Assembly (NCBI GenBank): GCA_002774875.1
Contig: PCYM01000006.1
Span: forward strand, 17,434 to 81,433
Source of the DNA: Candidatus Uhrbacteria bacterium CG10_big_fil_rev_8_21_14_0_10_50_16
GTDB lineage: Bacteria; Patescibacteriota; Patescibacteriia; UBA9934; UBA11717
Direction: 5' to 3'
Length of the DNA stretch: 64,000 bases
Notes under the pieces: generated by a model
The model's input: only the letters and a program-made list of their open reading frames with translations
Database searches by the model: none
Told to the model about the DNA's origin: nothing
Translations under genes and position numbers: made by a program
Part shown: piece after piece, positions 1,028 through 15,222 of the stretch
How the letters are laid out: each line of letters begins with the position of its first letter
Numbering within the stretch: position 1 is the stretch's first letter

Positions 1028-1104
1028 GCCCCGGTAGCTTAACCGGATAGAGCAGGAGGGTTCTAACCTCAAGGTTGCAGGTTCGAGTCCTGCCCGGGGC
1101 ACCA
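1028..1104 (+). tRNA. tRNA-Arg (anticodon TCT)
   Basis: Acceptor stem GCCCCGG/CCGGGGC, T-arm GCAGG-TTCGAGT-CCTGC, anticodon loop gtTCTaa, 3' ACCA. Confidence 0.75.
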
Positions 1105-1155
1105 CGTAGGAAATTGCCAGTTTTAGAAATCCATCTTACAAAACTTGATACATCT

Positions 1156-1866
1156 ATGAATCAAAAAAATAGCCTTTTGGTAGCAATAACGGTCGTCATA
1201 CTTGCTTCAATGGCCGTGTTGTATATTTTAAAAGATGTACCCGCACCTGCGGCCGTTCCTGTTTCCATAAATCCATCGCCACAACAACCGGTCGTTGTAC
1301 CGGACACCAAACCTATTGAACCAACAACACCGTCATGGGTTGGTAATCAGCTTTTATCCGTTGGTTTTCCATTACAGCCCGACCACTTGTTGTACATGAA
1401 GTTCGATGGAAGTATCGTTCCAATGGGTAAATTGTTTTACGTTAAAGGTTCTAACGGCAGTTTAACGCAAATCAAAAACGTTTCTGAACTCTCTCGAATA
1501 ACAGGTCAGATAAGCACGAGAGAGCAAGTTTTAGCCTTTGTCAGCTTTTTTACCTCCGAACCAACAAAATTTTTACTAGAACAAAATCCAGTGCAGGGAA
1601 TTGAGCCTGCTTACTCCGTATCAGAAATGCCACAATCTCTGACTCGGCTCTTAACTACAACCACGGTTGAATTGCACAACGGACAATGGGTTATAGAAAG
1701 AGACTTATTGCGGTATCCAAGCTTATCCGCTCAAGAACAGCGCGTGCCCGCTCAACTAGTGAGATCTTATGAGACCCTATCTCAAGACGGAATCTACACA
1801 TTTAGTATTGGCCGTGTACTAGCGGAAGGCGATGAGGTAAATAGTTTTTTACCTTATTATGATTAG
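1156..1866 (+). CDS. hypothetical protein, N-terminal TM anchor
   Basis: The ORF-track start at 1075 overlaps the tRNA; the first ATG after the tRNA is MNQKNSLLVAITVVILASMAV (a TM helix). No recognisable domain. Confidence 0.5.
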   Translation: MNQKNSLLVAITVVILASMAVLYILKDVPAPAAVPVSINPSPQQPVVVPDTKPIEPTTPSWVGNQLLSVGFPLQPDHLLYMKFDGSIVPMGKLFYVKGSNGSLTQIKNVSELSRITGQISTREQVLAFVSFFTSEPTKFLLEQNPVQGIEPAYSVSEMPQSLTRLLTTTTVELHNGQWVIERDLLRYPSLSAQEQRVPAQLVRSYETLSQDGIYTFSIGRVLAEGDEVNSFLPYYD

Positions 1867-1965
1867 GTTCACAAAAGTGCGGTCAAAAAAAACACTCTCC
1901 GTTGTTGAGAGTGTTTTAATTTTAGAAGGGAAAAATCCCTTGTCCGAATAAATTGAAATCTCGTA

Positions 1966-2895
1966 TTATTTTTTCCGTTTTTTATCGTGATGTTTTTTGT
2001 GGATATCGCGCAAATGGTTGTTTGTAATGTGTGTGTAGATTTGTGTGGTTGTAATGGAGGCGTGACCCAGCATAGCTTGAACAGATCGAATATCGGCACC
2101 TCCTCGCAATAAATCCGTAGCAAACGTGTGCCTCATAGTGTGCGGCGACACATGTTTTGTAATGCCAGCTTTACGTGCATATCCATCCACTGTTCGTTGA
2201 ATAGATCTTGGCGTCAGCCCCTGATCCACATCTCTCCCTGCTTTTGCACGATCGTGTGAAACAAACAGGAAGGGAGCCGTGTCGGCACGCCTGCTGAGAT
2301 ATACCTTAATTGCATCACGCGCGCGTTCCGACAAAAAAACAATGCGTCGTTTTCCACCCTTTCCTGTAACCGTAAACTCATCGCGCTTTAAATTGACGTG
2401 ATCAATCTCGAGTCGTGCGAGCTCTGATACACGTAACCCCGTAGAAAAAAGCGTTTCCAAAATTGCCGAATCTCGTAACGACACGAGTCCCTTACCGCGT
2501 TTTGGAATGTCCAAGAGTCGGATCAGCTCGTCCTCCTCCAAAAACTCCACCTGCCGGTCCGGATGCTTTGCGAGCTCGATCTTCTCTGCCGCCAAAGACT
2601 TAATGTCCCGTTTTGCTAAATATTTTAAAAATGATCGGAGGGCGATAAGGTGATAGTTTTGCGTGGTGGCTTTTGGAGCTTCTTGGTCACGCCCGTGAAT
2701 TTCTCGATTTAACCACACACGAAACTTGCGTACCTTCTCAAGTGTAATATCCCCTGGCGCCGGCCAGTGCGCCCATGTAAAAAACCGTCGTAAATAAAAA
2801 TCATAGTTTCTCAGCGTCCGTGCGCTGCGCCCCTTCTCAATCTCTAGATGTTCAAAGAAATCAAGAAGCAATATTTCTGTTTTTGATGTTGCCAT
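1966..2895 (-). CDS. tyrosine recombinase, XerC/XerD family (phage-integrase fold)
   Basis: C-terminus HTMRHTFATDLLRGGADIRSVQAMLGHASITTTQIYTHI carries the R..H..R..Y catalytic box. Start placed at MATSKTEILL (ATG on minus at 2895), not the longer ORF. Confidence 0.85.
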   Translation of the reverse strand: MATSKTEILLLDFFEHLEIEKGRSARTLRNYDFYLRRFFTWAHWPAPGDITLEKVRKFRVWLNREIHGRDQEAPKATTQNYHLIALRSFLKYLAKRDIKSLAAEKIELAKHPDRQVEFLEEDELIRLLDIPKRGKGLVSLRDSAILETLFSTGLRVSELARLEIDHVNLKRDEFTVTGKGGKRRIVFLSERARDAIKVYLSRRADTAPFLFVSHDRAKAGRDVDQGLTPRSIQRTVDGYARKAGITKHVSPHTMRHTFATDLLRGGADIRSVQAMLGHASITTTQIYTHITNNHLRDIHKKHHDKKRKK

Positions 2896-2989
2896 ATCCG
2901 TATTATACGACACTTGGTGCAGACGAGCGAGTGTGAATTGACAAACAACCCAATTTACGTTAGGTTGGATCTGTTGGCGCTGCACACAA

Positions 2990-3470
2990 GGAGTCGACCG
3001 GCTTGTCGCAAGGAAAGCCCGACTAAGACTAGGAGCTATCGAATCAACCCCCTCCCCCTAATTCGAACGCTCAGGTCTATGGTGCCTGCTCCCGTGCATT
3101 CCCAGCAGGCCGGTCCGAGGTAACTCTCGGACCGGCCACTAACCTTCTCTTTCGGACCGCTAAACAGGCGGTTTTGCTGTTTCTTGACCCAGAACCAATG
3201 AAGGAGCAATGTTCTCTCGCACCATTCGACCGTAGGATGGAGCTTACCCGACCGACGATCACGTCCGGCCAATATCCCCCACCAGGGACTAGGCCGGGCG
3301 TGGGCTGGGTCACGCTATCCGACCGTCCACCTCTGGACGGTTTGTTGTTTCTACCCCTCAATCCACCTTCGGGATTGACAAATAACACGCTTTCTTGTAT
3401 ATTCCTAGCGTTATTCACCAACGATCGCTTGGTACCTGATCTCTCCGACGGGTCACTCGGCCTTCGCTAA
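2990..3470. ncRNA. candidate structured ncRNA (rnpB or ssrA possible; strand undetermined)
   Basis: ~480 bp with no credible ORF and higher GC than its flanks. Many hairpins (GGCCGGTCCGAGGTAACTCTCGGACCGGCC with a GNRA-type loop; TTCGAAT...ATTCGAA). The motif GGAAAGCCCGAC resembles the RNase P P4 strand GGAAAGUCCGGGC, but the complementary P4 strand was not found. Confidence 0.3.
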
Positions 3471-3479
3471 TCGATTACT

Positions 3480-3743
3480 ATGCTTACAAAGAAGCAAAAG
3501 GAGAATATTATTAGCAAATTTGCTACCCACAAGAGTGACACGGGGTCACCACAGGTGCAGGTTGCGATTCTTACCTCCGAGATCAAAGATCTTACGGGTC
3601 ACTTGCGAACACACAAAAAGGACCACTCATCCCGACGCGGACTCATCCGCAAGGTAAATGAGCGTCGCCGTTTGCTCAAATACTTGGAGCGAGAGGACCT
3701 CAAGGCCCACAAAAAGTTAAAAGAAGCGTTGAAGTTGAAGTAA
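3480..3743 (+). CDS. rpsO: 30S ribosomal protein S15
   Basis: 87 aa; ...GSPQVQVAILTSEIKDLTGHLRTHKKDHSSRRGLIRKVNERRRLLKYL is the S15 signature. Confidence 0.95.
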   Translation: MLTKKQKENIISKFATHKSDTGSPQVQVAILTSEIKDLTGHLRTHKKDHSSRRGLIRKVNERRRLLKYLEREDLKAHKKLKEALKLK

Positions 3744-3750
3744 TTTTCCG

Positions 3751-3780
3751 TCCCCGCGGCTTTGTTGTCGCGGGGATTTG
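3751..3780 (+). terminator. rho-independent terminator after rpsO
   Basis: TCCCCGCG-loop-CGCGGGGA followed by TTTGG. Confidence 0.6.
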
Positions 3781-3975
3781 GCTAACAAGATCCTAGTCGT
3801 GTTCGGTTCTGCTGAATACGCCCGGTACCTTGTACCGTTTTATAAACATTTTGGGAGGTTTTGTTGGAAAAACGTAACACCGTTTCCTTTATTCCTAATT
3901 GTGCGGTTTTCTCAAATTTGTGCCGCACACAATCGCGTCACGCATGTTCCACGCATCTCTCAATCACTTTTTATC

Positions 3976-4707
3976 ATGATCCATCACAAACATCAGCGTG
4001 TCGGTGTCTTTATCGACGTACAGAATCTGTACTATAGCGCTCGTAATCTCTATAACCGAAAGGTAAACTTTGGCAATATTGTCAAAAAGGCGGTTGGAGC
4101 CCGCCAACTCATTCGTGCAACTGCGTACGTCGTTTCTACAAAAACCGGAGAGAACCAGCCGTTTTTTGACGCGCTCAATAATCTTGGAATCGAAACCAAG
4201 GAGAAAGAGCTCATGGAATACGACGGTGGCCAAAAGAAGGCCGACTGGGACGTTGGTATTACCGTGGACGCCATTAGCTCCGCACCAGATTTAGACGTGA
4301 TCATTCTCGTCTCCGGTGACGGTGACTACATGCCACTCATTGATTACCTCCACAGCAGAGGAAAATTTGTAGAGGTTGCAGCATTCCGAGAAACAACATC
4401 TTCTCGTCTTATCGAGAAGGTTGGGAGCTCAAACTACATCAACTTGTCGGAGAATAAGCGTAGTTTCCTCATTCCAACTGGTAGCCACGGAGCCGGAACG
4501 ATGGTATCAGACACAACCTCCGCTCAACCGCTTGCACAGGAGAAGGTTGAGGCAAAACCTGTAGTTAGATCTCTTTCAAAACCTCAAATCAAGCACATGC
4601 AAGCACCCGCTCCCAAGCAGATTCGTTACCCTGCGCGAGCTCACGTTACTGCAAAACCTGTAGATTACGACGGACTCTCACCCAATGAGCGTGCCTTAAA
4701 CAATTAG
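3976..4707 (+). CDS. NYN-domain (LabA/DUF88-like) protein
   Basis: VGVFIDVQNLYYSARNL ... VILVSGDGDYMPLI matches the NYN/PIN-like fold. Start placed at MIHHKHQRVGVF; the C-terminal third is low complexity. Confidence 0.75.
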   Translation: MIHHKHQRVGVFIDVQNLYYSARNLYNRKVNFGNIVKKAVGARQLIRATAYVVSTKTGENQPFFDALNNLGIETKEKELMEYDGGQKKADWDVGITVDAISSAPDLDVIILVSGDGDYMPLIDYLHSRGKFVEVAAFRETTSSRLIEKVGSSNYINLSENKRSFLIPTGSHGAGTMVSDTTSAQPLAQEKVEAKPVVRSLSKPQIKHMQAPAPKQIRYPARAHVTAKPVDYDGLSPNERALNN

Positions 4708-4883
4708 AAACCCGTTGTCTCATAAGCTACGGCTTGTGAGCAACGAAGCGTGCATATCAACACAGAGCGTCAGATGATATGATTGCTTCGTCGCTAAAAC
4801 GACATCTCATTCACAGCCTGGTGGCAAGATAGAGACCTCAACACATTGAGTTCTTGAGTCTGACTGCCAGGGGAACCAATTTT

Positions 4884-7133
4884 ATGGAACCAAAACAATT
4901 CTCTACGGAGTGGGCAGGTAAAACGCTTACGATCGAAGTAGGACGAATGGCTTTCCAGGCAGACGCCGCTTGTACCGTGCGCTATGGCGACACGGTCGTT
5001 ATGGCAACGGTCGTTATGTCCAAGGAAGAACGTCCTGGAATGAACTTTTTCCCGCTCATGGTGGATTACGAGGAAAAGTATTCCGCTGCTGGTAAGATCA
5101 AGGGATCGCGATTCATTAAGCAAGAGGGACGACCATCAGACCAAGCCGTTTTGGCTGGCCGTATGATCGACCGTACGCTACGACCGCTTTTTGATGAGCG
5201 TATTCGTAACGATATCCAGGTAATCGCATCCGTGTTGTCATTCGATGAGGAAAATGATCCGGATATCGTGGCAATCATTGCTTCTTGCGTTGTTCTCCAT
5301 ATGTCTCAAATCCCATGGGAGGGACCGGTTGCTGGTATTCGTATGGGACACATAGACGGCGCATGGATTGCCAATCCAACCTACACGCAACGAGAAACAA
5401 GCGTATCGGACCTCGTGGTCTGCGGAACAACTGACCGACTGCTCATGGTAGAAGCAAGTGCAAAACAGATACCAGACGCAACCATGATGGAAGGGGTAGA
5501 AGCCGGGCTCAAATCGCTCTCACCTGTTCTGGATCTCATTCAGCAAGTTCGTGATGCCGTCGGATCCGAGAAAATCGATCCCTTACAAGGCAAGGAAACA
5601 GCTGAACAAATGGCGACACGTGAGCAGGTAGAATCTCTTGCAAAGCCATTTATCAGCAAAAAAGTGGAGGAGCTCTTCTTTGGCGCACCACTTGATCGCA
5701 AAATTGATCGTGCTATGGCCCGAGGAGTTCTCACAGATCAGCTCAAGGATTTCTTACTCAGTGAAGGTGTAGAGGAAGAGAACCTTTCTTTTGGCACCAG
5801 CATGGTGTACCACGAGATCGAACACGTCATCTCTCAACAAATTCTCAAAAATGATCGTCGCGTTGACGGCCGTGCAATCGAAGAAATTCGTCCTCTTAGC
5901 TGTACCGTGGGGCTTTTACCACGCACGCATGGATCAGGACTTTTTGCACGCGGAGAAACACAGGTTCTCTCAACCGTAACCCTCGCAGGCCCAGGTGCAG
6001 CGCAGGTGATCGATACAATGGAAGTAGACGAGAAAAAGCGCTACATGCATCACTACTCATTTCCTCCATTTAGTGTCGGGGAAACGCGACCATTGCGAGG
6101 ACCAGGACGTCGTGAGGTTGGTCATGGTGCACTCGCAGAAAAAGCTCTCGAGCCTGTTCTTCCAGACGCAGAGGTATTCCCTTACGTAATCCGTGTTACA
6201 TCGGACACCATGGGATCAAACGGCTCTAGCTCTATGGGATCCGTCTGCGGATCGACAATCTCACTATTGGATGCAGGCGTTCCGCTTAAAGCGCCCGTCG
6301 CAGGTGTGGCTGTCGGTCTTGCATCGACACCCGACATGAACGAATGGAAAGTGTTTACGGATCTACAGGATTTAGAGGATGGACAGGGCGGAATGGACTT
6401 TAAAGTCGCAGGAACAACAGACGGCGTAACAGCAATTCAGCTGGACACAAAAACGCTCGGACTCAACATGGACATTGTAAAGGAAGCCTTCCGACAAGCC
6501 TCAAAGGCACGAGGGCAGATTCTTGAAGTTATCTCCAACACTATTGCAGAACCACGCGCCGAGCTTTCTCTCTACGCGCCTCGTATTGAGAGTATGCGTA
6601 TTAATCCAGACAAGATTCGTGACGTCATTGGCCCAGGAGGAAAGATGATTAACGAAATTATTGCCAAGACGGGTGTAGAAATTGATATTGAAGATGATGG
6701 AGTTGTCACGATTACCTCACGTATGGCAGAGGGAATGAAGGAAGCAATGGATTGGGTTAGGCTGCTTACTGCAGAAATTGAAGTAGGAAAGACGTATCAC
6801 GGAACGGTTACACGTCTTATGGATTTTGGTGCGTTCGTCGAAGTCCTGCCAAAGCAAGAAGGACTTGTGCATGTCTCCGAGATGGCGCCCTACCGCGTAA
6901 ACCAGGTAAAGGACATTGTAAAGGAAGGGGACAAGGTCTATGTAAAGGTCACCGAGGTAGACCAAATGGGTCGCACGAACCTCTCTATGAAGCAAGCAGA
7001 GGGAAATGTGTACCCAGAACCACCCACACAGGCAGAACGAAAGCCAGAAGGGGATCGTCCTGCACGTCGACCAGGATCGGATCGACCATCAGCGCCACGC
7101 GGTCCACGTCCACCACACCGTAATAACGGATAA
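4884..7133 (+). CDS. pnp: polyribonucleotide nucleotidyltransferase (PNPase)
   Basis: Two RNase PH domains, GGMDFKVAGT, and KH + S1 domains (GKTYHGTVTRLMDFGAFVEV). Start placed at MEPKQFSTEW. Confidence 0.95.
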   Translation: MEPKQFSTEWAGKTLTIEVGRMAFQADAACTVRYGDTVVMATVVMSKEERPGMNFFPLMVDYEEKYSAAGKIKGSRFIKQEGRPSDQAVLAGRMIDRTLRPLFDERIRNDIQVIASVLSFDEENDPDIVAIIASCVVLHMSQIPWEGPVAGIRMGHIDGAWIANPTYTQRETSVSDLVVCGTTDRLLMVEASAKQIPDATMMEGVEAGLKSLSPVLDLIQQVRDAVGSEKIDPLQGKETAEQMATREQVESLAKPFISKKVEELFFGAPLDRKIDRAMARGVLTDQLKDFLLSEGVEEENLSFGTSMVYHEIEHVISQQILKNDRRVDGRAIEEIRPLSCTVGLLPRTHGSGLFARGETQVLSTVTLAGPGAAQVIDTMEVDEKKRYMHHYSFPPFSVGETRPLRGPGRREVGHGALAEKALEPVLPDAEVFPYVIRVTSDTMGSNGSSSMGSVCGSTISLLDAGVPLKAPVAGVAVGLASTPDMNEWKVFTDLQDLEDGQGGMDFKVAGTTDGVTAIQLDTKTLGLNMDIVKEAFRQASKARGQILEVISNTIAEPRAELSLYAPRIESMRINPDKIRDVIGPGGKMINEIIAKTGVEIDIEDDGVVTITSRMAEGMKEAMDWVRLLTAEIEVGKTYHGTVTRLMDFGAFVEVLPKQEGLVHVSEMAPYRVNQVKDIVKEGDKVYVKVTEVDQMGRTNLSMKQAEGNVYPEPPTQAERKPEGDRPARRPGSDRPSAPRGPRPPHRNNG

Positions 7134-8137
7134 TGTATCGTTACCGCGACAACTATTTAGACACACAGCAGTCAGCCCGACCTTGGATCCGTTGGGCTGC
7201 TGTTGTTTTGTATCTCTTACTTGTGGGTTATTTAGCGATTACGTGGATACATCAGGGCAATGCTATTCCTAACGCTTCCTCATCCATTGGTGGTGCTGTC
7301 ACGTTACCTGAAGATGATTACGCTATTGCGATATTTTTTAATACAGACCAAAAGGAACTCCTCTTTAATGTCACAGGGCTTGTAGGTCAGGCTTTCGCGG
7401 TTAAAAATGACGGATCAATCGTGTCTATTAACCAAATGGTTCCATCGGCGCCAAGACCTCCTGCATGGTTTCTTCCAACAACAGTAGGCGTTGTCTACGT
7501 GAGAGAAGGGGATACTGTCACAACGCGCCGTCTATTTCGTATCAAAAATGGCATAGCTGTTTCTATGCCAGGTCAAAAGGCAATCCAAATCCCCATTCAT
7601 CCCAATGCAACAATCGGAATACATTGCTCCAACAACTGCTCTATTCCTGGTACAAGCCTCGTCCTCCCAGAAGGGCTCGACCTTATTTCTACCGATCATC
7701 AACTCATGATCGCAACGGACGCAAAAAATAGAGCGTCCTTTATGCAATTTATTTATGTGAGTAGCAAGCAGCAGAACCCCATAGAAAGAGATCGGCTCAC
7801 CAACGATGGGCGTACGATCTCAGAGCTCGTCCCGGCAGACACGATCGACACAATTATTACAGACGAAGCTTTGCAAACGCACTACACAGGAGGAACAACC
7901 TTTGGATGGTACTATCAGATCAATGAAGATCGTGACGTGCTCTTGGCATCAACATCAACAGACCTCCTAAATGAGTACACATCAGAGATGTCTACAGCTA
8001 CGTGGACAAATACAATTTGTGAAAAACACCCAGTCTCGTTTTACAGATATCATTCTTTGCCAATGTTAGAGGAAAACACGCAATCGACCTACACACTTGT
8101 TCGAAGTATAAATTCCTGGCGTATCTGTGCAGAGTAA
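7133..8137 (+). CDS. hypothetical protein with an N-terminal TM anchor
   Basis: 334-aa ORF; the ATG overlaps the pnp stop (TAATG); TM helix WAAVVLYLLLVGYLAITW; no recognisable domain. Confidence 0.5.
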   Translation: MYRYRDNYLDTQQSARPWIRWAAVVLYLLLVGYLAITWIHQGNAIPNASSSIGGAVTLPEDDYAIAIFFNTDQKELLFNVTGLVGQAFAVKNDGSIVSINQMVPSAPRPPAWFLPTTVGVVYVREGDTVTTRRLFRIKNGIAVSMPGQKAIQIPIHPNATIGIHCSNNCSIPGTSLVLPEGLDLISTDHQLMIATDAKNRASFMQFIYVSSKQQNPIERDRLTNDGRTISELVPADTIDTIITDEALQTHYTGGTTFGWYYQINEDRDVLLASTSTDLLNEYTSEMSTATWTNTICEKHPVSFYRYHSLPMLEENTQSTYTLVRSINSWRICAE

Positions 8138-8143
8138 CCATTC

Positions 8144-8200
8144 TGTGGATAACCTGAGGGTAACTGTGGATTAATGTGGATAAGAAATTACTTATCCACA
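8144..8200. promoter_or_regulatory. cluster of four DnaA-box 9-mers
   Basis: TGTGGATAA 8144-8152, TGTGGATTA 8165-8173, TGTGGATAA 8175-8183 and inverted TTATCCACA 8192-8200. The first box is 7 bp after the stop of the preceding gene. Confidence 0.6.
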
Positions 8201-8263
8201 TTTTTGTTTAAAAATAACGAACAAGTTTTTGTTTTTTTATCTAAAATAAGCCAAATACATCCG

Positions 8264-8292
8264 TTGACAAATAGTGTTCAACGTGCTACTAT
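8264..8292 (+). promoter_or_regulatory. sigma70-like promoter (TTGACA-17-TACTAT)
   Basis: Perfect -35 TTGACA, 17-nt spacer, -10 TACTAT. It points into an ORF-free GC-rich region. Confidence 0.4.
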
Positions 8293-8297
8293 GTGTA

Positions 8298-8700
8298 TGT
8301 ACCCTTCAAACAATCGTTCTTTCAAAACCCCTACCACAGGGGTGTCTAGCGAAGACTGGTACATCTTGGCTGCGCACCTCTCCTCGCAACTGTTCTATTC
8401 CATTGTTTAAAAATAAAAACATAAAATTGGGATAAAACAAACGCCACGAAGGGCTCCCCTCAATACATGTTGGTCTCAAATTGGACCGGCGCTCGAGGGA
8501 TGCCATAGAACGGTTATGAGGGAAATGTTCTACCACGTGCAGGCAGCTCGTAGGCCGAGATCTGAAGACAATCCTTGTCGCTGGATCCCGGTCTACTGGA
8601 GCGCTCTTCTGCAGTGGACCTAACGTCCGACTGCCCGAGTCACCAGCGCTCCACCTATCTATAAAGGGAGACGCTCGTAGTTCAGGCAGTCTTTTCGTTT
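8298..8700 (+). ncRNA. candidate structured ncRNA downstream of a promoter (possible RNase P RNA-like)
   Basis: ~400 nt with no credible ORF and high GC. Hairpins CCCCTACCACAGGGG and GGACCGG...CCGGTC. The 3' segment CCCGGUCUACUGG resembles the RNase P P4-3' CCCGGCUUAUCGG. Confidence 0.3.
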
Positions 8701-8760
8701 CCACAACCCTTGACAGTTTTTTCATAATAGATCACTGCTTAATTGGTATACTAGTAGTCC

Positions 8761-9228
8761 ATGAAACTATCTACCCCCCATCGTTCCGTGGTGATTGCAT
8801 TGATTGTTACATGTCTTCTCGTTATAAGCGATGGATTATTTAAGTTCATTGCATTATCGCGCCTTAGAGACGTATTTATTCCAGTCTTACCGGGTGTCGC
8901 CGAGTTTTATCTCCACAAAAACCTAGGTGTTGTTGCAAATACACCTATACCTCTCCTGCTCGTCATACCTCTTTCGGTTGTTATTCTCATCGGATGCAGT
9001 ATGTGGCTTTCTCGCATCTGGAGTCATCAGCCGAGTTTAGCCATTAGTCTGGTCTTACTCATTGGAGGAGCCTTTGGTAATTTGGTCGATCGTGTTGTCC
9101 ACGGGTTTACAACAGACTATCTCCTGCTATTCAGTCGGAGCATCATAAATCTGTCGGACGTACTCATTGTTCTTGGCATACTGGGTATTTTGTTCGCTAC
9201 AAACAAAACCTCCCCACATCAATCATAA
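8761..9228 (+). CDS. lspA: lipoprotein signal peptidase II
   Basis: 155 aa, 4 TM helices, GGAFGNLVDR and NLSDVLIVLG motifs. Confidence 0.9.
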   Translation: MKLSTPHRSVVIALIVTCLLVISDGLFKFIALSRLRDVFIPVLPGVAEFYLHKNLGVVANTPIPLLLVIPLSVVILIGCSMWLSRIWSHQPSLAISLVLLIGGAFGNLVDRVVHGFTTDYLLLFSRSIINLSDVLIVLGILGILFATNKTSPHQS

Positions 9229-9239
9229 AGGAGGTTTTT

Positions 9240-10748
9240 ATGTCTATTTTATCTGCAGCGATCATCGGCCTTTCCGCCGAACCGATCTATGTTGAAGTTG
9301 ATATTGCGTTTGGTCTTCGTAAATTCTTGATCGTTGGTCTGCCGGATCGTGCCGTCAATGAATCATCCGGCAGGGTAGAGGCAGCCCTGAAAAAAAGCGG
9401 TTTCCCCTTTCCCCGCTATAAAGTAACGGTCAATCTAGCTCCTGCACACTTAAAAAAAGAAGGTCCCGCGTACGACCTTCCTATTGCAATTAGCCTCCTT
9501 GCTGCACAAGGACACATACAATTACCCAAAGAACCACTGGTTATTTTGGGGGAACTTGGGCTCGATGGGTCAATCCGGCATGTTGACGGAGTGCTTCCGA
9601 TCACCGTAGAGATGAAGAGACGCGGACACAGAACCATTATTGTTCCCGCCTGTAACGCACAGGAAGCCGCTCTCGTGGACGGAATTCATGTTCTGGGTGT
9701 TAGCCACCTAAAAGATCTTGTTCTGCACCTTGAGGGGACAAAGCTTATCAAGCCAACGGTTCACGTTGTCGCACTCGACCATCAACCGATTTCCTACGCC
9801 TACGATATGGCACACGTAAAAGGGCAGGAGCGTGCAAAGCGCGCGTTAGAGATTGCCGCCGCTGGTGGTCATAATATTCTCTTATCGGGTCCACCTGGGT
9901 CTGGAAAAACATTGCTTGCACGATCGCTTCCTACGATTCTTCCTCAACTTACACTCGACGAAGCACTCGACATTACACGCATTCACTCAGTGAGCGGCGC
10001 ACTCAAAGGAATGCCCTTGGTAACACAGCGACCGTTTCAGTCCCCTCATCACACAACAAGCGGGGTGGCACTGATCGGCGGGGGCACAACACCAAAACCA
10101 GGACAGGTGAGTCTTGCACACCGTGGCGTTCTATTCTTGGATGAATTCCCAGAGTTTTCTAAGCAAGCACTCGAAAATCTTCGACAACCATTAGAGGACG
10201 GGTTTATTACTGTTTCTCGCGCGGCGGGTACGGCAGAATTCCCGGCAAAATTTATGCTCGTTGCCGCCATGAATCCGTGTCCTTGTGGGTATGCCAGTGA
10301 TCCGTTTCATCCTTGCGTGTGCACACCCACACAAATCATTCGCTATCAAAAAAAATTGTCAGGCCCCTTACTCGATCGCATTGACCTGCATTTAGAGGTT
10401 CCAAAACTTGAGATTGAAAAATTGGAGCAACTAGATGCCGGAGAAACGTCAACGGATTTTCAAAAACGCGTTCAAGCGGCACGGAATATTCAAACAAAAC
10501 GATTTGAAACAGTTGAACTTGTGACAAACGCAGACATTGGAACACGCGACATTAAAACCTATTGTCCCATGTCCAAAGAGGCAACACTTATCTTGGGAAC
10601 CGCCGCGCGATCGCTACACCTATCTGCTCGTGCCTACATTCGCATCATAAAAGTTGCACGCACGATTGCCGACATCGCCGCCGTCGATCTTATTGAGACC
10701 CCTCACATCACAGAAGCGCTTCAGTATAGAGAGCGCCTTACACCGTGA
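9240..10748 (+). CDS. comM: Mg-chelatase-like ATPase, YifB/ComM family
   Basis: 502 aa; ILLSGPPGSGKTLLARSLPTILP (Walker A); ChlI-type AAA+ fold; strong RBS AGGAGG. Confidence 0.9.
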   Translation: MSILSAAIIGLSAEPIYVEVDIAFGLRKFLIVGLPDRAVNESSGRVEAALKKSGFPFPRYKVTVNLAPAHLKKEGPAYDLPIAISLLAAQGHIQLPKEPLVILGELGLDGSIRHVDGVLPITVEMKRRGHRTIIVPACNAQEAALVDGIHVLGVSHLKDLVLHLEGTKLIKPTVHVVALDHQPISYAYDMAHVKGQERAKRALEIAAAGGHNILLSGPPGSGKTLLARSLPTILPQLTLDEALDITRIHSVSGALKGMPLVTQRPFQSPHHTTSGVALIGGGTTPKPGQVSLAHRGVLFLDEFPEFSKQALENLRQPLEDGFITVSRAAGTAEFPAKFMLVAAMNPCPCGYASDPFHPCVCTPTQIIRYQKKLSGPLLDRIDLHLEVPKLEIEKLEQLDAGETSTDFQKRVQAARNIQTKRFETVELVTNADIGTRDIKTYCPMSKEATLILGTAARSLHLSARAYIRIIKVARTIADIAAVDLIETPHITEALQYRERLTP

Positions 10749-10767
10749 TTTCTACAAAAAATATTTA

Positions 10768-11172
10768 TTACGCTTGGCCCACGTAGCGCATGTACAAAAA
10801 TACAGCAATTAGCAGACCGAGCCACGCGTAAGCAAGACCATCCATGAGTTGCTGTCGCTTTTTGAATTCTGCAAAGCTATCCCATTCACCCGACTTCCAG
10901 GATAAACGGCGGCCAAATAGGAACATCGCGCCCAGGGCAACAAAACCCGCAATCGGAATTAAGGAGACAAGAAACCAAAGATATTGCCGTGTTCCCAACG
11001 CATAGGCCTGTGTCCAAAATAACCCGCCGGGAGATGGCCGTTTAAGGTAACGCTCAATCAACTCCTCCGCGGGGACCAACTCAACCGTATACCCGCAAGA
11101 TCCACAGATTTTCTGCAGCTCCTTTAGCTTCTCCAAACACTCGGGACAGGTTGCGGTTGTTTTCATGTACAC
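10768..11172 (-). CDS. hypothetical zinc-ribbon membrane protein
   Basis: 134 aa; CPEC...CGSCGY zinc ribbon followed by 2-3 TM helices. Confidence 0.5.
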   Translation of the reverse strand: MYMKTTATCPECLEKLKELQKICGSCGYTVELVPAEELIERYLKRPSPGGLFWTQAYALGTRQYLWFLVSLIPIAGFVALGAMFLFGRRLSWKSGEWDSFAEFKKRQQLMDGLAYAWLGLLIAVFLYMRYVGQA

Positions 11173-11354
11173 ATTCTAGCAAATTAGCCGCCGTATGCGT
11201 ATTAGATCAGGTTCATTGTAGCCGTTATGAGTGAATCGACTCACGGCCATTCAGAATATAAAAACAATGCAAGCAGCACTATTATTCAAATAATGTCCAA
11301 AACACCAACAAAACCCGCAAAACATCGGGCGACGATCCACCTAAGCTTCAGCTA

Positions 11355-11383
11355 TTGACAATATCTGCTCTTTTTACTACAAT
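11355..11383 (+). promoter_or_regulatory. sigma70-like promoter upstream of rpmH (TTGACA-17-TACAAT)
   Basis: Consensus -35 and -10 hexamers with a 17-nt spacer, 22 bp upstream of the rpmH ATG. Confidence 0.5.
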
Positions 11384-11405
11384 CTCCACACATTGAATGA
11401 ACCTA

Positions 11406-11534
11406 TGCCTAAGCGAACGTTCCAACCAAAAAAACGACATAAGATGCGTGTGCACGGCTTCCGAGCCCGAATGCGTACTGCAACAGGGCGACTCGTCTTA
11501 AAACGACGAAGAGCAAAGGGACGACTCAAATTGA
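11406..11534 (+). CDS. rpmH: 50S ribosomal protein L34, apparently frameshifted near the C-terminus
   Basis: [38 protein letters not shown], then the frame ends DDSN*. The +1 frame gives the canonical GRLKLTV* ending at 11542; one G is missing in a GGG run at ~11519. Confidence 0.8.
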
Positions 11535-11587
11535 CCGTCTAAACCCGAAAGACATGCCATGTGCGTGTCTTTCTTGTATTATAGAGC

Positions 11588-11945
11588 TATGCTCCCCTAC
11601 GATTATCGTCTCAAGAAGGAAATGGACATTAAAAAGCTCTTTTCTAAAGGAAAAGGGGTGTTTGACGTAAAGGTGGGTGCCAAGGTCCGCAAGAACGGAT
11701 TGCAGCAAACTCGGTTTGTGATCGTGGTCGGAGTAAAGGTCCACAAGCGAGCCTTCCGTCGTAATCGTATTCGTCGACGTGTTCGTGCAATTCTAGAAGC
11801 ACATTTGAGCCACATCGCCACAGACTACGACATCGCAATCATCGCGCGACCAGAGGCGCTTAAAGCCTCATATGAGGAGCTTCAAACATCCGTTCTCTCC
11901 GCGCTCAAGAAAGCCGGCGTTTTGAATGACGTTCCTATACTATGA
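11588..11945 (+). CDS. rnpA: ribonuclease P protein component
   Basis: MLPYDYRLKKEMDIKKLF...RRNRIRRRVRAI carries the RnpA signature (RL.k..F; RNR.KR). Confidence 0.9.
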
Positions 11946-12202
11946 GGTTTCAAAACTTTGTTTATCCACTACGGCTTCCCGTGTTGGGGATGATTCGTCT
12001 CTATCAAAAAACGCTTTCCTTTGATCATGGGCCGCTTAAAGGATTTTATCCGCATGGCTATTGTCGCTTTCATCCAACGTGCTCTGAGTATGGATATAAG
12101 TCGATTAAAAACCAGGGCATCATAGTAGGAGGTGTTAAAACGTTGTATCGTATTCTTCGCTGTAACCCGTGGAGTCGTGGGGGAGTCGATGAACCTCAAT
12201 AA
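11942..12202 (+). CDS. yidD: membrane protein insertion efficiency factor YidD
   Basis: 86 aa; CRFHPTCSEYGYKSIKNQG...RCNPWSRGGVD is the YidD signature. Confidence 0.9.
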   Translation: MRFQNFVYPLRLPVLGMIRLYQKTLSFDHGPLKGFYPHGYCRFHPTCSEYGYKSIKNQGIIVGGVKTLYRILRCNPWSRGGVDEPQ

Positions 12203-12233
12203 ATAAGTTACCCTCAAGTTATCCCCATGTTGT

Positions 12234-12258
12234 CCGTGCCTTGTGCACGGATTTTTTG
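12234..12258 (+). terminator. rho-independent terminator after yidD
   Basis: CCGTGCC-TTGT-GCACGG followed by ATTTTTTG. Confidence 0.5.
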
Positions 12259-12307
12259 TTTCTTATTGTGCAACTATTATTTACTACAACCCCAATCTTG
12301 GCCAAAA

Positions 12308-12391
12308 CTATCCACAGTATTCACGACTTATGCACGAATGCTGTGGACAACTTAGAGCTTATAAACAGGCTTTCTATTCAACTGTGGATAT
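12308..12391. promoter_or_regulatory. DnaA-box cluster upstream of dnaA
   Basis: CTATCCACA 12308-12316, TGTGGACAA 12342-12350, TGTGGATAT 12383-12391. Confidence 0.55.
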
Positions 12392-12471
12392 GTGGTATGA
12401 TTCTGTCACTCGGAAATACAGCCAGGCGCACGGCCGTTAGTCCGCTTCACGCGTATCACTCAAACAAAATT

Positions 12472-13842
12472 ATGGATACACAAGAGTTGTGGGAAACCAC
12501 ATTAGGGGAGCTTGAATTAGAGCTCTCAAAGGCAAATTTTACAACCTGGTTCAAGGACACGTTCATCACCGAGATCACACACGACCATATCGTCATTGCG
12601 GTCCCCAACAATTTCACAAAAACATGGTTAGAGAATAAATATCATAAAAGTATTCTCAAATCTCTACAGAGGGCAACAAGTGACGCCGTACGAGAAGTAA
12701 CATACAACGTAGAGGTAAAAGGATCCTCAAACGGCCCACAACCAATCCCGATTCATAATACCCAGGTTGATACATCGATTGCCTTTAGTCGTAGTGACCT
12801 GCAGGACGATCCAATCGGAAACACCCTCAATCCACGCTACACTTTTGATGCTTACATCGTCGGAAAACAAAACGAGTTTGCTCATGCTGCCGCCATGGCT
12901 GTTCCTAAAAATCTCGGAACCACCTACAACCCCCTATTTATCTACGGAGGCGTAGGACTTGGCAAAACGCATCTTTTACAAGCAATCGGGCATGAGGTTG
13001 TTCAGCTCAACCCCGGAAAGCGTGTACTCTACGTTACGAGTGAGAAGTTCACCAATGATTTTATCCAGGCCGTTAGAACCGGACGTGCGCGTGAGTTTAA
13101 AGATGTTTATAGAACCGTGGACGTGTTAATTGTGGATGATATTCAGTTTTTTAGTGGAAAAGTAGAAACACAGGAAGAGTTTTTTCACACATTCAACGCA
13201 CTTCACCAGCAGAACAAGCAGATCATCTTGTCCGCCGATCGACCACCAAAACTCATCACCGCGTTAGAAAATCGTCTTTTATCCCGTTTTGAATGGGGAA
13301 TGACGGCCGATATCAGTAGCCCCGACTATGAGACACGTGTTGCGATATTGGAGGCAAAGTGTCGAGAGCGTCAATGGAGCATGCCACAAGAGGTCATGCG
13401 CCACGTTGCGGACAATATCCAATCAAATGTTCGCGAACTTGAAGGCGCCCTTAATAAAATTATTGCGTACCATCAGTTAAAAAATCAGGTACCAACCTTG
13501 GAATCCGTTGCCCCAATTGTGCAGAGTTTTAGGCCCGTAGACATCATAAAAACGGCCACTCCGCGAGAACTTATGCATGTGGTGGCTGAGTACTATGACA
13601 TAACTATGGACGAGCTCGTTGGAAAAAGTCGAGAGAAGCGACTCGCATTTCCACGTCAAATCATTATGTATCTCTTGCGCGAGGATATGAGTTATTCCTA
13701 CCCATCAATTGGACAGGAGCTCGGCGGAAGAGACCACACGACAGCAATGCACGCCTATTCAAAAATAAAGCGCTGCCTCGAATCGGATGAGAAGCTGTGT
13801 CACGATATGGAGATCATTAAGCAGCGATTGTACGCAGCATAA
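12472..13842 (+). CDS. dnaA: chromosomal replication initiator protein DnaA
   Basis: Start placed at MDTQELWETTLGELE (the longer ORF begins inside the DnaA-box region). AAA+ GGVGLGKTHLLQAIG and a C-terminal HTH. Confidence 0.95.
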   Translation: MDTQELWETTLGELELELSKANFTTWFKDTFITEITHDHIVIAVPNNFTKTWLENKYHKSILKSLQRATSDAVREVTYNVEVKGSSNGPQPIPIHNTQVDTSIAFSRSDLQDDPIGNTLNPRYTFDAYIVGKQNEFAHAAAMAVPKNLGTTYNPLFIYGGVGLGKTHLLQAIGHEVVQLNPGKRVLYVTSEKFTNDFIQAVRTGRAREFKDVYRTVDVLIVDDIQFFSGKVETQEEFFHTFNALHQQNKQIILSADRPPKLITALENRLLSRFEWGMTADISSPDYETRVAILEAKCRERQWSMPQEVMRHVADNIQSNVRELEGALNKIIAYHQLKNQVPTLESVAPIVQSFRPVDIIKTATPRELMHVVAEYYDITMDELVGKSREKRLAFPRQIIMYLLREDMSYSYPSIGQELGGRDHTTAMHAYSKIKRCLESDEKLCHDMEIIKQRLYAA

Positions 13843-14094
13843 GTCCACAGGTTTAGGGGATAACCCTGCTTATAACCCTGTAGAAAAGTATGTGTATGGG
13901 CACGTGGATAATAAGTGGATAATAGACCCGCGGGGGTGGGGACATAGTTGTTCACAGGCTGCGTCCCATCCATACACACAGTGGCTGTGCACTGAATAGA
14001 CTATTAAACATTCATTCAATAGGACTTTTCCACCCTATCCACAGCACTATTACTATTACTAGTTATATATCTATATTCATAAGAACACGTAAAC
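13843..14094. other. candidate oriC (dnaA-dnaN intergenic)
   Basis: DnaA-box-like 9-mers CGTGGATAA 13903-13911, AGTGGATAA 13914-13922 and CTATCCACA 14035-14043, followed by the AT-rich tract ACTATTACTATTACTAGTTATATATCTATATTCAT. Confidence 0.5.
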
Positions 14095-15222
14095 ATGATC
14101 TTCTCGTGTACAAAAGACAATCTGCAAAAAGGACTGAATGTGGTAAGCCACATATCCAATAAACAGGTAAATCTACCTGTCTTGCAGAATGTCCATCTAA
14201 AAGCGGAGGGAGGAAGTATTGTTCTTTCGACAACGAATCTAGAAATCGCCATGCGTATTAGTATTCGAGGAAAAATTGATAAGCCGGGTGAGTTTACAGT
14301 TCCTGCAAAACTTTTTTACGACTTTGTGAGTTTGTTGCCTAATGATCGTGTGGATGTAGAGCGCGTTGATCAGCTTTTGGAGGTTCGATGTGGAGATACA
14401 GCAACAACAATGAACGGAATTGATGCTGCAGAGTTTCCACTCATTCCACAGGTGGAGACGACGGCCGTTATTAAAATGCCTGCACAACTCGTTCGCGAGG
14501 CTCTTTCTCAGGTTGCATTTGCAGTGTCACATAGCGAGGCGCGACCAGAACTTTCTGGTGTTCTCCTTAAGTTTAATGAGAAGACGCTTACCATGGCGGC
14601 AACGGATAGCTATCGTCTCTCTGAACGAAAGGTAATTCTCACCGAACCTGCACAGGATCGACAACTGATCATACCGGCAGAGACCGTGAATGAAGTAAAC
14701 CGCATGCTATCCGTGTTTAAGGATGACCCGGAAGCAGACGACGTGCTGGAATTGAGACTCTCGGATTCTCAGGCGGTTTTTGTCTATGGACCAGCAGAAT
14801 TGATTACAAGAACGATTGATGGAAATTATCCCGACTACACACAGATTATCCCCACGGTGTTTACGACGGAGGTGATTGTGGGGAGAAATGAGTTGATAAA
14901 GGCGATTAAGACTGCAAGTCTCTTTTCGCGGCAGGGCGTGTTTGATGTGATCTTGCAGATCTCTCCAGATACCAAGAAACTAACGGTTACCGCAAATGAG
15001 GTAACGCGTGGAACAAACACGGTGAGTTGTGATGCAGATATCACTGGGAAGGAAAATAAAATGACGGTTAATTTTCGCTACTTACTTGATGGTCTCAACA
15101 CAATGAGCTCGGAAGGTGTTACGTTAAAGTTAATCGATGCAATGAACCCATGTCTTGTCATGCCAAATGGTCTCCTTGAACCTGGATCGCAAACCTACAT
15201 TGTGATGCCAATTCGCCAATAA
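14095..15222 (+). CDS. dnaN: DNA polymerase III beta sliding clamp
   Basis: 375 aa with three beta-clamp domains; the N-terminus MIFSCTKDNLQKGLNVVSHIS is typical. Confidence 0.95.
   Translation: MIFSCTKDNLQKGLNVVSHISNKQVNLPVLQNVHLKAEGGSIVLSTTNLEIAMRISIRGKIDKPGEFTVPAKLFYDFVSLLPNDRVDVERVDQLLEVRCGDTATTMNGIDAAEFPLIPQVETTAVIKMPAQLVREALSQVAFAVSHSEARPELSGVLLKFNEKTLTMAATDSYRLSERKVILTEPAQDRQLIIPAETVNEVNRMLSVFKDDPEADDVLELRLSDSQAVFVYGPAELITRTIDGNYPDYTQIIPTVFTTEVIVGRNELIKAIKTASLFSRQGVFDVILQISPDTKKLTVTANEVTRGTNTVSCDADITGKENKMTVNFRYLLDGLNTMSSEGVTLKLIDAMNPCLVMPNGLLEPGSQTYIVMPIRQ

What the first reader, a model, noticed from the sequence alone, without database searches (positions are those of the whole stretch)
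8144..8292. Dense DnaA-box cluster plus a consensus promoter, 4 kb away from dnaA
Four 9-mers matching TTATCCACA with zero or one mismatch lie within 57 bp (three direct, one inverted), starting 7 bp after a stop codon. They are followed by an AT-rich tract and a TTGACA-17-TACTAT promoter. This is separate from the box clusters flanking dnaA itself. It could be a DnaA-titration (datA-like) or DnaA-reactivating locus, DnaA-dependent control of the downstream transcript, or the true oriC displaced from dnaA.
Basis: partly seen in the sequence, partly recalled or inferred. Interest (0 to 1): 0.6.

Follow-up and report, generated by a model that had tools for sequence, protein, structure and literature searches.

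The report
DnaA-box array upstream of unknown RNA
The cluster of DnaA-binding sites is real and strongly conserved, but it is not the replication origin: it sits at a fixed distance upstream of the promoter of a previously undescribed, roughly 400-base structured RNA gene in Uhrbacteria, so the replication initiator DnaA probably controls that RNA.

Summary
The only three perfect TTATCCACA 9-mers in the 64-kb window lie at 8144-8200, with one 1-mismatch site between them. An AT-rich spacer and a TTGACA-17-TGcTACTAT promoter follow.

It is not oriC. Per-gene GC3 skew switches sign between dnaA and dnaN. That spacer carries a conserved box pair, DnaA-trios and an AT-rich element (14026-14083).

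In 11 species-level Uhrbacteria relatives the module is nearly invariant. It reads TGTGGATAA-N22-TGTGGATAA-N8-TTATCCACA, then 61-64 nt, then the promoter. The flanking protein has diverged to about 41% identity over the same set.

The promoter drives a roughly 399-nt RNA (8299-8697). This RNA has strong covariation support, its own terminator and no Rfam match.

In four more distant lineages DnaA boxes still precede the same kind of promoter and RNA (three of the four have 2-3 boxes, one has a single box). Three of those loci have neither dnaA nor a skew switch nearby.

Best reading: a DnaA-binding regulatory array coupled to this RNA's promoter, in the manner of Bacillus subtilis DnaA-box clusters. 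It may also act as a DnaA sink. DnaA binding and the direction of regulation are inferred, not shown.

The parts
8144..8152 (-). DnaA box 1 (TTATCCACA, perfect)
   Evidence: Perfect in 11 of 11 species, always 31 nt before box 3.
8155..8163 (-). Weak DnaA-box-like site 1' (TGAGGGTAA on the + strand, 2 mismatches)
   Evidence: The pattern TG....TAA is kept in 10 of 11 species, with 2-4 mismatches. It lies 11 nt after the start of box 1.
8165..8173 (-). DnaA box 2 (TAATCCACA, 1 mismatch), not conserved
   Evidence: Relatives show 1-8 mismatches at this position.
8175..8183 (-). DnaA box 3 (perfect)
   Evidence: Perfect in 10 of 11 species, with 1 mismatch in L097.
8192..8200 (+). DnaA box 4 (perfect), inverted relative to boxes 1-3. 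It is the box whose distance to the -35 hexamer is best conserved.
   Evidence: Perfect in 11 of 11 species. It lies 61-64 nt from the -35 hexamer. A box in the same orientation sits 63 nt (L095) and 67 nt (L102) from the -35 in distant lineages.
8173..8202 (.). Palindrome made by boxes 3 and 4 (TGTGGATAA-N8-TTATCCACA). In this genome it would form a hairpin followed by a T-run, like a terminator.
   Evidence: -15.2 kcal/mol. The T-run is absent in L090, L097, L099 and L100, and the flank pairing is broken in L099 and L100.
8201..8263 (.). Spacer of conserved length (61-64 nt) and poorly conserved sequence, AT-rich here (22% G+C)
8264..8292 (+). Sigma-70-type promoter: TTGACA, 17 nt, TG-n-TACTAT
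   Evidence: The -35 hexamer, the 17-nt spacing and the -10 hexamer are kept in 11 of 11 species.
8299..8697 (+). Structured non-coding RNA gene of about 399 nt, not in Rfam
   Evidence: Nucleotide conservation far exceeds that of the flanking protein. There is a 1-nt indel inside a conserved block. The folding z-score is -6.5. 91% of cells pair, and 32 of 70 pairs show compensatory change, against 15 +/- 2.5 in shuffles. No Rfam match was found.
8382..8521 (+). Long-range helix of the RNA (8382-8397 with 8506-8521). It encloses an A-rich linker and a hairpin domain.
   Evidence: repeat I2; helix 3, 97.5% of cells paired.
8629..8699 (+). Terminal hairpin plus U-run, the terminator of the RNA gene
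   Evidence: repeat I3; compensatory U-A to C-G change. Equivalent terminators are present in the relatives.
14026..14083 (+). Context, not part of the cluster: the actual oriC unwinding module. It reads TTTTCCACC-CTATCCACA, then GCAC, then TAT TAC TAT TAC TAG, then an AT-rich stretch.
   Evidence: conserved in L004, L006, L090, L091 and L094. The GC3-skew switch lies between dnaA and dnaN. The pattern is as defined in PMC8287927.

Best explanation
The cluster is a DnaA-binding regulatory array that belongs to the promoter of a conserved non-coding RNA gene of about 400 nt.

Proposed mechanism. Three consensus, presumably high-affinity, boxes anchor DnaA. Boxes 1 and 3 point the same way and lie three helical turns apart. 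They flank two weak sites phased at 10-11 nt. ATP-DnaA could fill those weak sites cooperatively, giving an oligomer of four protomers. Box 4 is inverted and sits at a fixed 61-64 nt from the -35 hexamer. The resulting nucleoprotein complex, about 100-150 bp upstream of the transcription start, would tune RNA polymerase activity at a near-consensus promoter. RNA output would then be tied to DnaA level, DnaA nucleotide state and the replication cycle.

What is shown: the sites, their conservation and spacing, the promoter, the structured RNA, and the location of oriC elsewhere.

What is inferred: that DnaA binds here, that binding changes transcription, and in which direction. The same array probably also withdraws some DnaA from oriC, as B. 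subtilis DnaA-box clusters do.
For: 1. Box conservation. Boxes 1, 3 and 4 are perfect in 32 of 33 cases across 11 species. The 31-nt and 17-nt spacings are invariant. Meanwhile the adjacent protein falls to 41-50% identity and the inter-box sequence varies.

2. Distance to the promoter. Box 4 lies 61-64 nt from the -35 hexamer in all 11 species, although the spacer sequence diverges.

3. An unbiased test. RNA homologues were found with a pattern from the RNA alone. All 4 true hits carry the box module.

4. Distant lineages. In L092, L093, L095 and L102 the neighbourhood differs. dnaA is not within the fetched DNA of any of the four, and GC3 skew, computed for L092, L093 and L095, shows no switch. 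Yet boxes still precede a TTGACA-17-TGnTAnAAT promoter. That promoter drives an RNA with an A-rich linker and its own terminator.

5. Concentration of perfect boxes. 32 of the 37 perfect boxes in about 197 kb of main-clade loci lie in this cluster.

6. DnaA itself. The base-contacting residues of DnaA domain IV are conserved: PRQ, the P in YPSIG, and GGRDHTT..H. The same 9-mer family populates the oriC flanks.

7. Precedent. DnaA regulates genes next to secondary box clusters in B. subtilis (PMC3245932, PMC8203912). In E. coli it binds closely phased box pairs at promoters (PMC11317965).
Against: - The boxes lie about 100-150 bp upstream of the start site. That is far for simple occlusion or for class I activation.
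- The promoter is near-consensus, so it may need no activator.
- The upstream gene, the boxes and the RNA gene stay adjacent in nearly every locus. The boxes therefore cannot be assigned to the promoter rather than to the 3' end of the upstream gene by synteny alone. L102 is the one exception.
- Box number and orientation differ in distant lineages: three direct boxes in L092 and L093, two in L095, and a single 1-mismatch box in L102.
- Homology of the distant RNAs rests on shared architecture and on weak covariance-model hits (E 0.2-0.3).
- There are no binding or expression data.
Confidence: 0.55

Rival explanations
1. A DnaA sink or DnaA-activity control locus, like datA or the B. subtilis DnaA-box clusters. 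It would act on replication timing independently of the RNA gene. The strongest DnaA sites in the region would be loaded before the weaker oriC boxes and would be duplicated early.
For: All perfect boxes of the window are here, while the oriC boxes all carry a mismatch. In the main clade the cluster lies 5.7 kb from oriC. oriC-proximal clusters restrain initiation in B. subtilis (PMC3245932). This reading is not exclusive of the best explanation.
Against: A pure sink needs no fixed distance to a promoter, yet 61-64 nt is kept. In L092, L093 and L095 the boxes sit with the RNA gene away from dnaA and from any skew switch. Only 3 strong sites are present.
Confidence: 0.2
2. The inverted pair of boxes 3 and 4 is simply the intrinsic terminator of the upstream rpsO-NYN-pnp-hypothetical operon, or a roadblock that shields the RNA promoter. 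On this reading the match to the DnaA box is incidental.
For: In the window the pair forms a hairpin of -15.2 kcal/mol followed by TTTTTGTTT, 36 nt after the stop codon. T-runs follow it in the window, L004, L006, L088, L089, L091 and L094.
Against: The stem sequence is invariant instead of covarying. The T-run is missing in L090, L097, L099 and L100, and the flank pairing is broken in L099 and L100. Box 1 is equally conserved but lies outside the hairpin. L092 and L093 have only direct boxes.
Confidence: 0.07
3. The cluster is the replication origin, or a required distal part of a split origin.
For: There are consensus boxes next to an AT-rich tract 4-6 kb from dnaA. Split origins flanking dnaA exist in B. 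subtilis and H. pylori (PMC8203912).
Against: All genes between the cluster and dnaN keep left-replichore GC3 skew, and the sign changes between dnaA and dnaN in the window and in L006. A complete box, trio and AT-rich module is conserved upstream of dnaN. The spacer at the cluster is up to 43% G+C in relatives and has no conserved trios. There is no skew switch at the cluster in L092, L093 or L095.
Confidence: 0.03
4. The 9-mers are the operator of another dimeric transcription factor that recognises TGTGGATAA-N8-TTATCCACA, not DnaA.
For: A 26-bp perfect palindrome is typical of dimeric regulators. The promoter spacer GTGTTCAACGTGC is also conserved, which hints at further factors.
Against: The half-site is exactly the universal DnaA box. 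A third copy lies in direct orientation at 31 nt, with phased weak copies between. Variants of the same 9-mer crowd both flanks of dnaA. The DnaA DNA-contact residues are conserved.
Confidence: 0.05

Closest known systems
Bacillus subtilis secondary DnaA-box clusters at the sda, ywlC, yydA, vpr/ywcI and trmE promoters
   Same: These are intergenic clusters of consensus boxes outside oriC, mostly origin-proximal. DnaA regulates the adjacent gene, and together the clusters restrain initiation (PMC3245932, PMC8203912).
   Different: Here the regulated gene is a structured non-coding RNA. The array is small (3 strong and 2 weak sites), has a rigid geometry and is conserved across species. The organism is a CPR bacterium. 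Neither binding nor regulation has been shown.
E. coli promoters with double DnaA boxes (nrdA, mioC, polA, purH, rne)
   Same: Strong and weak boxes in direct orientation separated by 1-3 bp, located upstream of a promoter (PMC11317965).
   Different: Four phased sites plus an inverted fifth, placed about 70-120 bp upstream of the -35 hexamer. The target is an RNA gene.
E. coli DARS1/DARS2 (DnaA-reactivating sequences)
   Same: A core of three boxes in which one is opposite to two direct ones, with one box a perfect consensus (PMC6868365).
   Different: The DARS1 core is TTATCCACt-N5-TGTGGATAA-N3-TGTGTATTA. That is a convergent pair with a 5-bp gap. Here the opposed pair is divergent with an 8-bp gap, and the direct strong boxes are 31 nt apart.
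E. coli datA
   Same: A high-affinity box cluster outside oriC that lowers the availability of initiator.
   Different: datA needs an IHF site between the boxes and acts through ATP hydrolysis. No such element was looked for or seen here. datA is not tied to a promoter.
oriC basal unwinding system (box pair, DnaA-trios and an AT-rich region)
   Same: It uses the same DnaA boxes, and an AT-rich stretch follows in this genome.
   Different: There are no conserved trios and no conserved AT-richness at the cluster, and no skew switch. The real module is at 14026-14083.

Membership tests
Chromosomal replication origin (oriC) | The strand-composition (GC skew) switch coincides with the locus | tested here: not met
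   GC3 skew is negative for every gene from 162 to 13842 and positive from dnaN (14095) onward. The pattern is the same in L006, and there is no switch at the cluster in L092, L093 or L095.
Chromosomal replication origin (oriC) | A DnaA box (or pair), a short spacer, three or more DnaA-trios and an AT-rich unwinding region, conserved among relatives | tested here: not met
   At 8192-8263 there are no conserved trios, and spacer G+C ranges from 22% to 43%. The full module is present and conserved at 14026-14083 instead (definition).
Secondary DnaA-box cluster / DnaA-regulated promoter (B. subtilis type) | A cluster of consensus DnaA boxes in an intergenic region outside oriC, more than chance | tested here: met
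Secondary DnaA-box cluster / DnaA-regulated promoter (B. subtilis type) | The boxes are conserved in relatives and linked to an adjacent promoter | tested here: met
   Eleven species show invariant box spacing and 61-64 nt to the -35 hexamer. Distant lineages keep boxes upstream of the equivalent promoter.
Secondary DnaA-box cluster / DnaA-regulated promoter (B. subtilis type) | DnaA occupies the site in vivo or in vitro, and expression of the adjacent gene depends on DnaA | not testable with these tools
   This needs ChIP, DAP-seq or EMSA, and reporter assays. Only the conservation of the DnaA domain IV contact residues could be checked.
DARS (DnaA-reactivating sequence) | Core boxes I and II opposed head-to-head with a gap of about 5 bp, and box III direct to box II with a gap of about 3 bp | tested here: not met
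   E. coli DARS1 was read directly. It is convergent with N5. Here the pair is divergent with N8.
datA | A box cluster with an IHF site that promotes hydrolysis of DnaA-bound ATP | not tested
   No IHF-site model for this lineage was available, and the activity is not computable.
Intrinsic (Rho-independent) terminator | A stable hairpin directly followed by a U-run, with stem pairing (not stem sequence) maintained in relatives | tested here: not met
   The hairpin is present in all species. The U-run is missing in 4 of 11, and the stem sequence is invariant rather than covarying.
Any Rfam 15 RNA family (for the downstream transcript) | A covariance-model match at or near the gathering score | tested here: not met
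   The only gathering-score matches in the window and in seven relatives are tRNAs located elsewhere. E-value mode up to 10 found nothing over 8299-8697, and only terminator-like noise in L093. ARAGORN found no tmRNA.

The most novel reading that the evidence does not exclude
The array makes DnaA the direct regulator of a new class of large structured RNA in CPR bacteria. That RNA would in turn be part of the replication or cell-cycle circuit, for example by feeding back on initiation or by coupling growth functions to replication. These organisms appear to lack most known regulators of DnaA.
Probability: 0.12. Interest if true: 0.85.

Novelty: new variant of a known kind. Interest (0 to 1): 0.6.

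Why it matters
Secondary DnaA-box clusters are known from a few model bacteria. Nothing was found in the paper library for such clusters in the Candidate Phyla Radiation, or for DnaA-box clusters next to non-coding RNA promoters.

This array is small and geometrically rigid, and it holds every perfect DnaA box in the sampled region. It is welded to the promoter of a conserved RNA of about 400 nt that is absent from Rfam.

If DnaA does control this RNA, it would give a first handle on how ultra-small, uncultivated bacteria couple replication to other processes. It would also add a large structured RNA class of unknown function.

On a practical level, the result locates oriC of these genomes in the dnaA-dnaN spacer. 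It also flags a public 'hypothetical protein' call (8306-8725, - strand) as a likely artefact lying over an RNA gene.

Tried and rejected
Those loci were used only as background.
- The first metagenome scan, with a 21-mer from the RNA, found nothing. The viral-contig scan also found nothing.
- Rfam found no family, in both gathering and E-value modes. By eye I saw no RNase P P4 strands, no tmRNA acceptor or T-arm and no SRP domain IV motif.
- nhmmer with the main-clade RNA profile did not detect the L092, L093 or L095 RNAs. A covariance model of the 5' domain placed its two best hits exactly at the predicted L095 and L092 starts, but only at E 0.2-0.3, and it missed L093. Homology of the distant RNAs is therefore argued from architecture, not proven.
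- A hairpin or terminator reading of boxes 3 and 4 first looked supported by G..C to C..G flank covariation in L090 and L091. It was then weakened by G..G flanks in L099 and L100 and by missing T-runs.
- DARS-like geometry was rejected after reading E. coli DARS1 directly.
- Phased weak boxes running from box 4 towards the promoter were looked for by eye. A 2-mismatch TTATCTAAA is present at 8236-8244 in the window only and is not conserved.
- Literature searches for DnaA boxes in CPR, or for DnaA-box clusters next to non-coding RNAs, found nothing specific.

Full report
**The observation**

The sequence at 8144-8200 reads TGTGGATAA cc TGAGGGTAA c TGTGGATTA a TGTGGATAA gaaattac TTATCCACA.
- A scan for TTATCCACA finds perfect matches at 8144 (-), 8175 (-) and 8192 (+), and a 1-mismatch match at 8165 (-).
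- These three are the only perfect boxes in the 64-kb window. Shuffled sequence gives a mean of 0.43 per window.
- Eighty unrelated loci totalling 1.27 Mb hold 18 perfect boxes and no place with three within 100 bp.
- The cluster starts 6 nt after the stop codon of ORF 7133-8137.
- A 63-nt spacer of 22% G+C follows.
- After the spacer comes TTGACA-17-TGcTACTAT at 8264-8292, the second best promoter match in 7-15 kb.

**Organism and gene context**

The flanking proteins are named in public records as belonging to Candidatus Uhrbacteria bacterium CG10_big_fil_rev_8_21_14_0_10_50_16, a member of the Candidate Phyla Radiation. The gene order, is as follows.
- rpsO.
- An NYN-domain protein (3778-4707).
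- pnp, encoding PNPase (4854-7133).
- A 334-aa hypothetical protein (7133-8137).
- The box cluster.
- About 560 nt without a credible ORF.
- lspA (8761-9228).
- comM/yifB (9240-10748).
- A zinc-ribbon ORF on the - strand.
- rpmH.
- rnpA (11559-11945).
- yidD (11942-12202).
- dnaA (ATG at 12472, ending at 13842).
- dnaN (14095-15222).

**It is not the origin**

I computed third-codon-position GC skew gene by gene and expressed it on the + strand.
- Every gene from 162 to 13842 is negative. This includes the five genes between the cluster and dnaN: lspA -0.26, comM -0.14, the zinc-ribbon ORF -0.23, rnpA -0.10 and dnaA -0.11.
- dnaN and nearly all later genes are positive.
- The relative L006 shows the same switch between dnaA and dnaN.

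The dnaA-dnaN spacer holds a tandem box pair TTTTCCACC-CTATCCACA. A GC-rich 4-mer (GCAC) follows, then five TAN trinucleotides (TAT TAC TAT TAC TAG), then TTATATATCTATATTCATAA, at 14026-14083.
- This module is conserved in L004, L006, L090, L091 and L094.
- It matches the box, spacer and trio pattern of the basal unwinding system defined by Pelliciari et al. 2021 (PMC8287927).
- The relative orientation of box and trios was taken from that paper's search pattern and not checked independently.

By contrast, the spacer next to the 8144 cluster is up to 43% G+C in relatives and has no conserved trios.

**Comparative evidence for the boxes**

Relatives were gathered in three ways.
- Homologues of the 334-aa protein, which number only three clusters in 5.8 billion proteins.
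- Homologues of ComM, whose contigs were then fetched.
- A metagenome scan with a pattern taken only from the 5' end of the downstream RNA.

Eleven species-level sequences carry the same module: the window, L004, L006, L088, L089, L090, L091, L094, L097, L099 and L100. The module starts shortly after the upstream stop codon (6-8 nt in most species, less in a few). It reads TGTGGATAA-N22-TGTGGATAA-N8-TTATCCACA, then 61-64 nt, then TTGAC(A/T)-N17-TAnnnT, then about 6 nt, then GTACCCTTCA.
- Box 1 is perfect in 11 of 11, box 3 in 10 of 11 and box 4 in 11 of 11.
- The 31-nt and 17-nt start-to-start distances never change.
- A weak site, TG....TAA with 2-4 mismatches, persists 11 nt after box 1. The array is therefore strong, weak, variable, strong at a 10-11-nt period, plus one inverted strong box.
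- The neighbouring protein is only 41-50% identical over the same set.
- 32 of the 37 perfect boxes in about 197 kb of these loci lie in this cluster, while the oriC boxes all carry a mismatch.

The C-terminal domain of the window's DnaA keeps the residues that contact the box in the E. coli co-crystal (1J1V). These are PRQ, the proline of the YPSIG loop, and GGRDHTT..H. The standard consensus should therefore apply. That is an inference.

**The downstream transcript is a structured RNA gene**

- From the promoter to about 8700 the DNA is far more conserved than the flanking genes (alignment A1, mean column identity 85% from 8100 to 8770). A 1-nt indel lies inside an otherwise invariant block.
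- Gene callers disagree over this stretch. They call a 139-aa ORF on the - strand in one genome, nothing in another and an over-extended lspA in a third.
- The 398-nt stretch 8299-8696 folds at -145 kcal/mol, z = -6.5 against shuffles.
- On an 8-species alignment, 91% of cells form standard pairs. 32 of 70 pairs show changes on both sides, against 15 +/- 2.5 in column shuffles (0 of 500 reach the observed value) and at most 11 in slid controls. The structure was derived from the same alignment, which favours it somewhat.
- Conserved G-U pairs fit the + strand.
- A long terminal hairpin with a U-run (8629-8699) closes the gene and covaries. Equivalent terminators occur in the relatives.
- Rfam 15 gives no match in the window or in seven relatives, in gathering or in E-value mode. 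ARAGORN finds no tmRNA.

I saw none of the hallmark strands of RNase P RNA, tmRNA or SRP RNA. That rests on my own knowledge of those motifs. The RNA's function is unknown.

**The boxes travel with the RNA promoter, not with dnaA**

In four more distant lineages the neighbourhood has changed. dnaA is not within the fetched DNA of any of the four (about 20 kb each). GC3 skew was computed for L092, L093 and L095, and it does not change sign. In each of the four loci a TTGACA/T-N17 promoter with a good -10 hexamer drives a non-coding stretch of about 320-400 nt. That stretch has an A-rich linker (ACAAAAACAAAAA-like), a long-range helix around the linker and a strong terminator. DnaA boxes lie upstream in every case.
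- L092 has three direct boxes, the last one 47 nt from the -35 hexamer.
- L093 has three direct boxes, the last one 48 nt from the -35 hexamer.
- L095 has an opposed pair, whose + box lies exactly 63 nt from the -35 hexamer.
- L102 has a single 1-mismatch + box, 67 nt from the -35 hexamer. Here the upstream gene is unrelated and divergent.

Sequence homology of these RNAs to the main-clade RNA is weak. nhmmer finds nothing. A covariance model of the 5' domain puts its two best hits at the predicted L095 and L092 starts, but only at E 0.2-0.3. I treat them as probable, not proven, homologues.

**Terminator alternative**

Boxes 3 and 4 form a 9-12-bp hairpin in RNA (-11 to -15 kcal/mol). In the window a T-run follows it. 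Three points argue against termination as the conserved function.
- Four of the eleven species lack the T-run, and two lose the flanking pair.
- The stem is invariant rather than covarying.
- Box 1 lies outside the hairpin.

Termination may be a local by-product.

**Comparison with known DnaA loci**

- The E. coli DARS1 core, read directly from MG1655, is TTATCCACt-N5-TGTGGATAA-N3-TGTGTATTA, a convergent pair (PMC6868365). Here the opposed pair is divergent with an 8-bp gap, so the DARS geometry is not met.
- The closest analogues are the B. subtilis DnaA-box clusters outside oriC. These regulate the adjacent genes (sda up; dnaA, ywlC and yydA down) and jointly restrain initiation, best when close to oriC (PMC3245932; PMC8203912).
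- E. coli promoters with closely phased double boxes are also close (PMC11317965).

**Verdict**

The cluster is a conserved DnaA-binding array. It is most likely the upstream regulatory region of a new structured RNA gene, and it may also serve as a DnaA sink. It is not oriC. The following are inferred and remain untested: that DnaA binds here, the sign of any regulation, and the role of the RNA.

Noticed in passing
window 14026-14083: A canonical oriC unwinding module lies directly upstream of dnaN: a tandem box pair, GCAC, five TAN trios and an AT-rich stretch. It is conserved in five relatives and places oriC of this lineage in the dnaA-dnaN spacer.
   Followed up: yes
window 8306-8725 (- strand): A 139-aa ORF that gene callers report as a protein lies entirely antisense over the conserved RNA. 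It has no Pfam hit and an arginine/serine/proline-rich composition, and it is not called in close relatives. It is probably a spurious annotation in public records.
   Followed up: partly
window 8274-8286: The promoter spacer GTGTTCAACGTGC, between the -35 and -10 hexamers, is conserved across species far beyond what a promoter needs. It could be an operator for another factor.
   Followed up: no
window 8302-8322, 8382-8397 and 8506-8521: Two conserved 5' segments (CCCUUCA..UCGUUCUUU and CCUCGCAACUGUUCUAU) can each pair with the same 3' strand (AUAGAACGGUUAUGAGGG). The single-sequence fold uses the first and the alignment fold uses the second. The RNA may switch between two conformations.
   Followed up: no
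window 8746-8763; L004 7748-7763: A -10-like hexamer (TATACT here, TACAAT in L004, L006 and L088) ends 9 nt before the lspA ATG here and 7-9 nt before it in those relatives, suggesting a leaderless or very short-leader lspA mRNA. A conserved TTGACA right after the RNA terminator lies about 30 nt further upstream, too far for a standard spacing.
   Followed up: no
window 3480-13842: Almost all genes from rpsO to dnaA are on the + strand yet lie left of oriC. They, and the strongly promoted RNA gene, are therefore transcribed head-on against the leftward replication fork for about 10 kb.
   Followed up: partly
window 12219-12391: Four 1-mismatch DnaA boxes, conserved in L004 and L006, lie between yidD and the dnaA start codon (12472). 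They follow a terminator-like hairpin at 12232-12252. This is likely the dnaA autoregulatory or upstream origin region.
   Followed up: partly
window 38000-42000: A 4-kb stretch of 60-62% G+C in a 48% G+C genome. It holds a 733-aa multi-pass membrane ORF and an Ala/Pro-rich 292-aa ORF, neither with a Pfam hit, next to T4SS-pilin-like genes. It may be an acquired island.
   Followed up: no
window 7133-8137; L092 3924-5546; L095 7169-8551: The gene upstream of the boxes may be a very diverged DUF3352-family protein in all lineages. L092 hits DUF3352 at E 1e-12. L092 against L095 gives E 5e-8. The window against L095 gives E 0.5 over the same motif region. The upstream gene and the RNA may therefore form a conserved pair.
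   Followed up: partly
L091 20042-20074: A second divergent pair of perfect DnaA boxes (20042 on the - strand, 20066 on the +) lies near a tRNA gene and an asparagine synthase gene, plus two isolated perfect boxes at 17130 and 19163.
   Followed up: no
L089 9145-9522; L090 9185-9538; L091 9150-9500; L095 9158-9529; L102 7635-8024; L092 6164-8960: In most relatives the first gene after the RNA is a DksA/TraR-type zinc-finger protein. In L092 and L093 it is IMPDH followed by adenylosuccinate synthase. All are linked to (p)ppGpp or purine metabolism, so the RNA might be a very long cis-acting leader rather than a trans-acting RNA.
   Followed up: no
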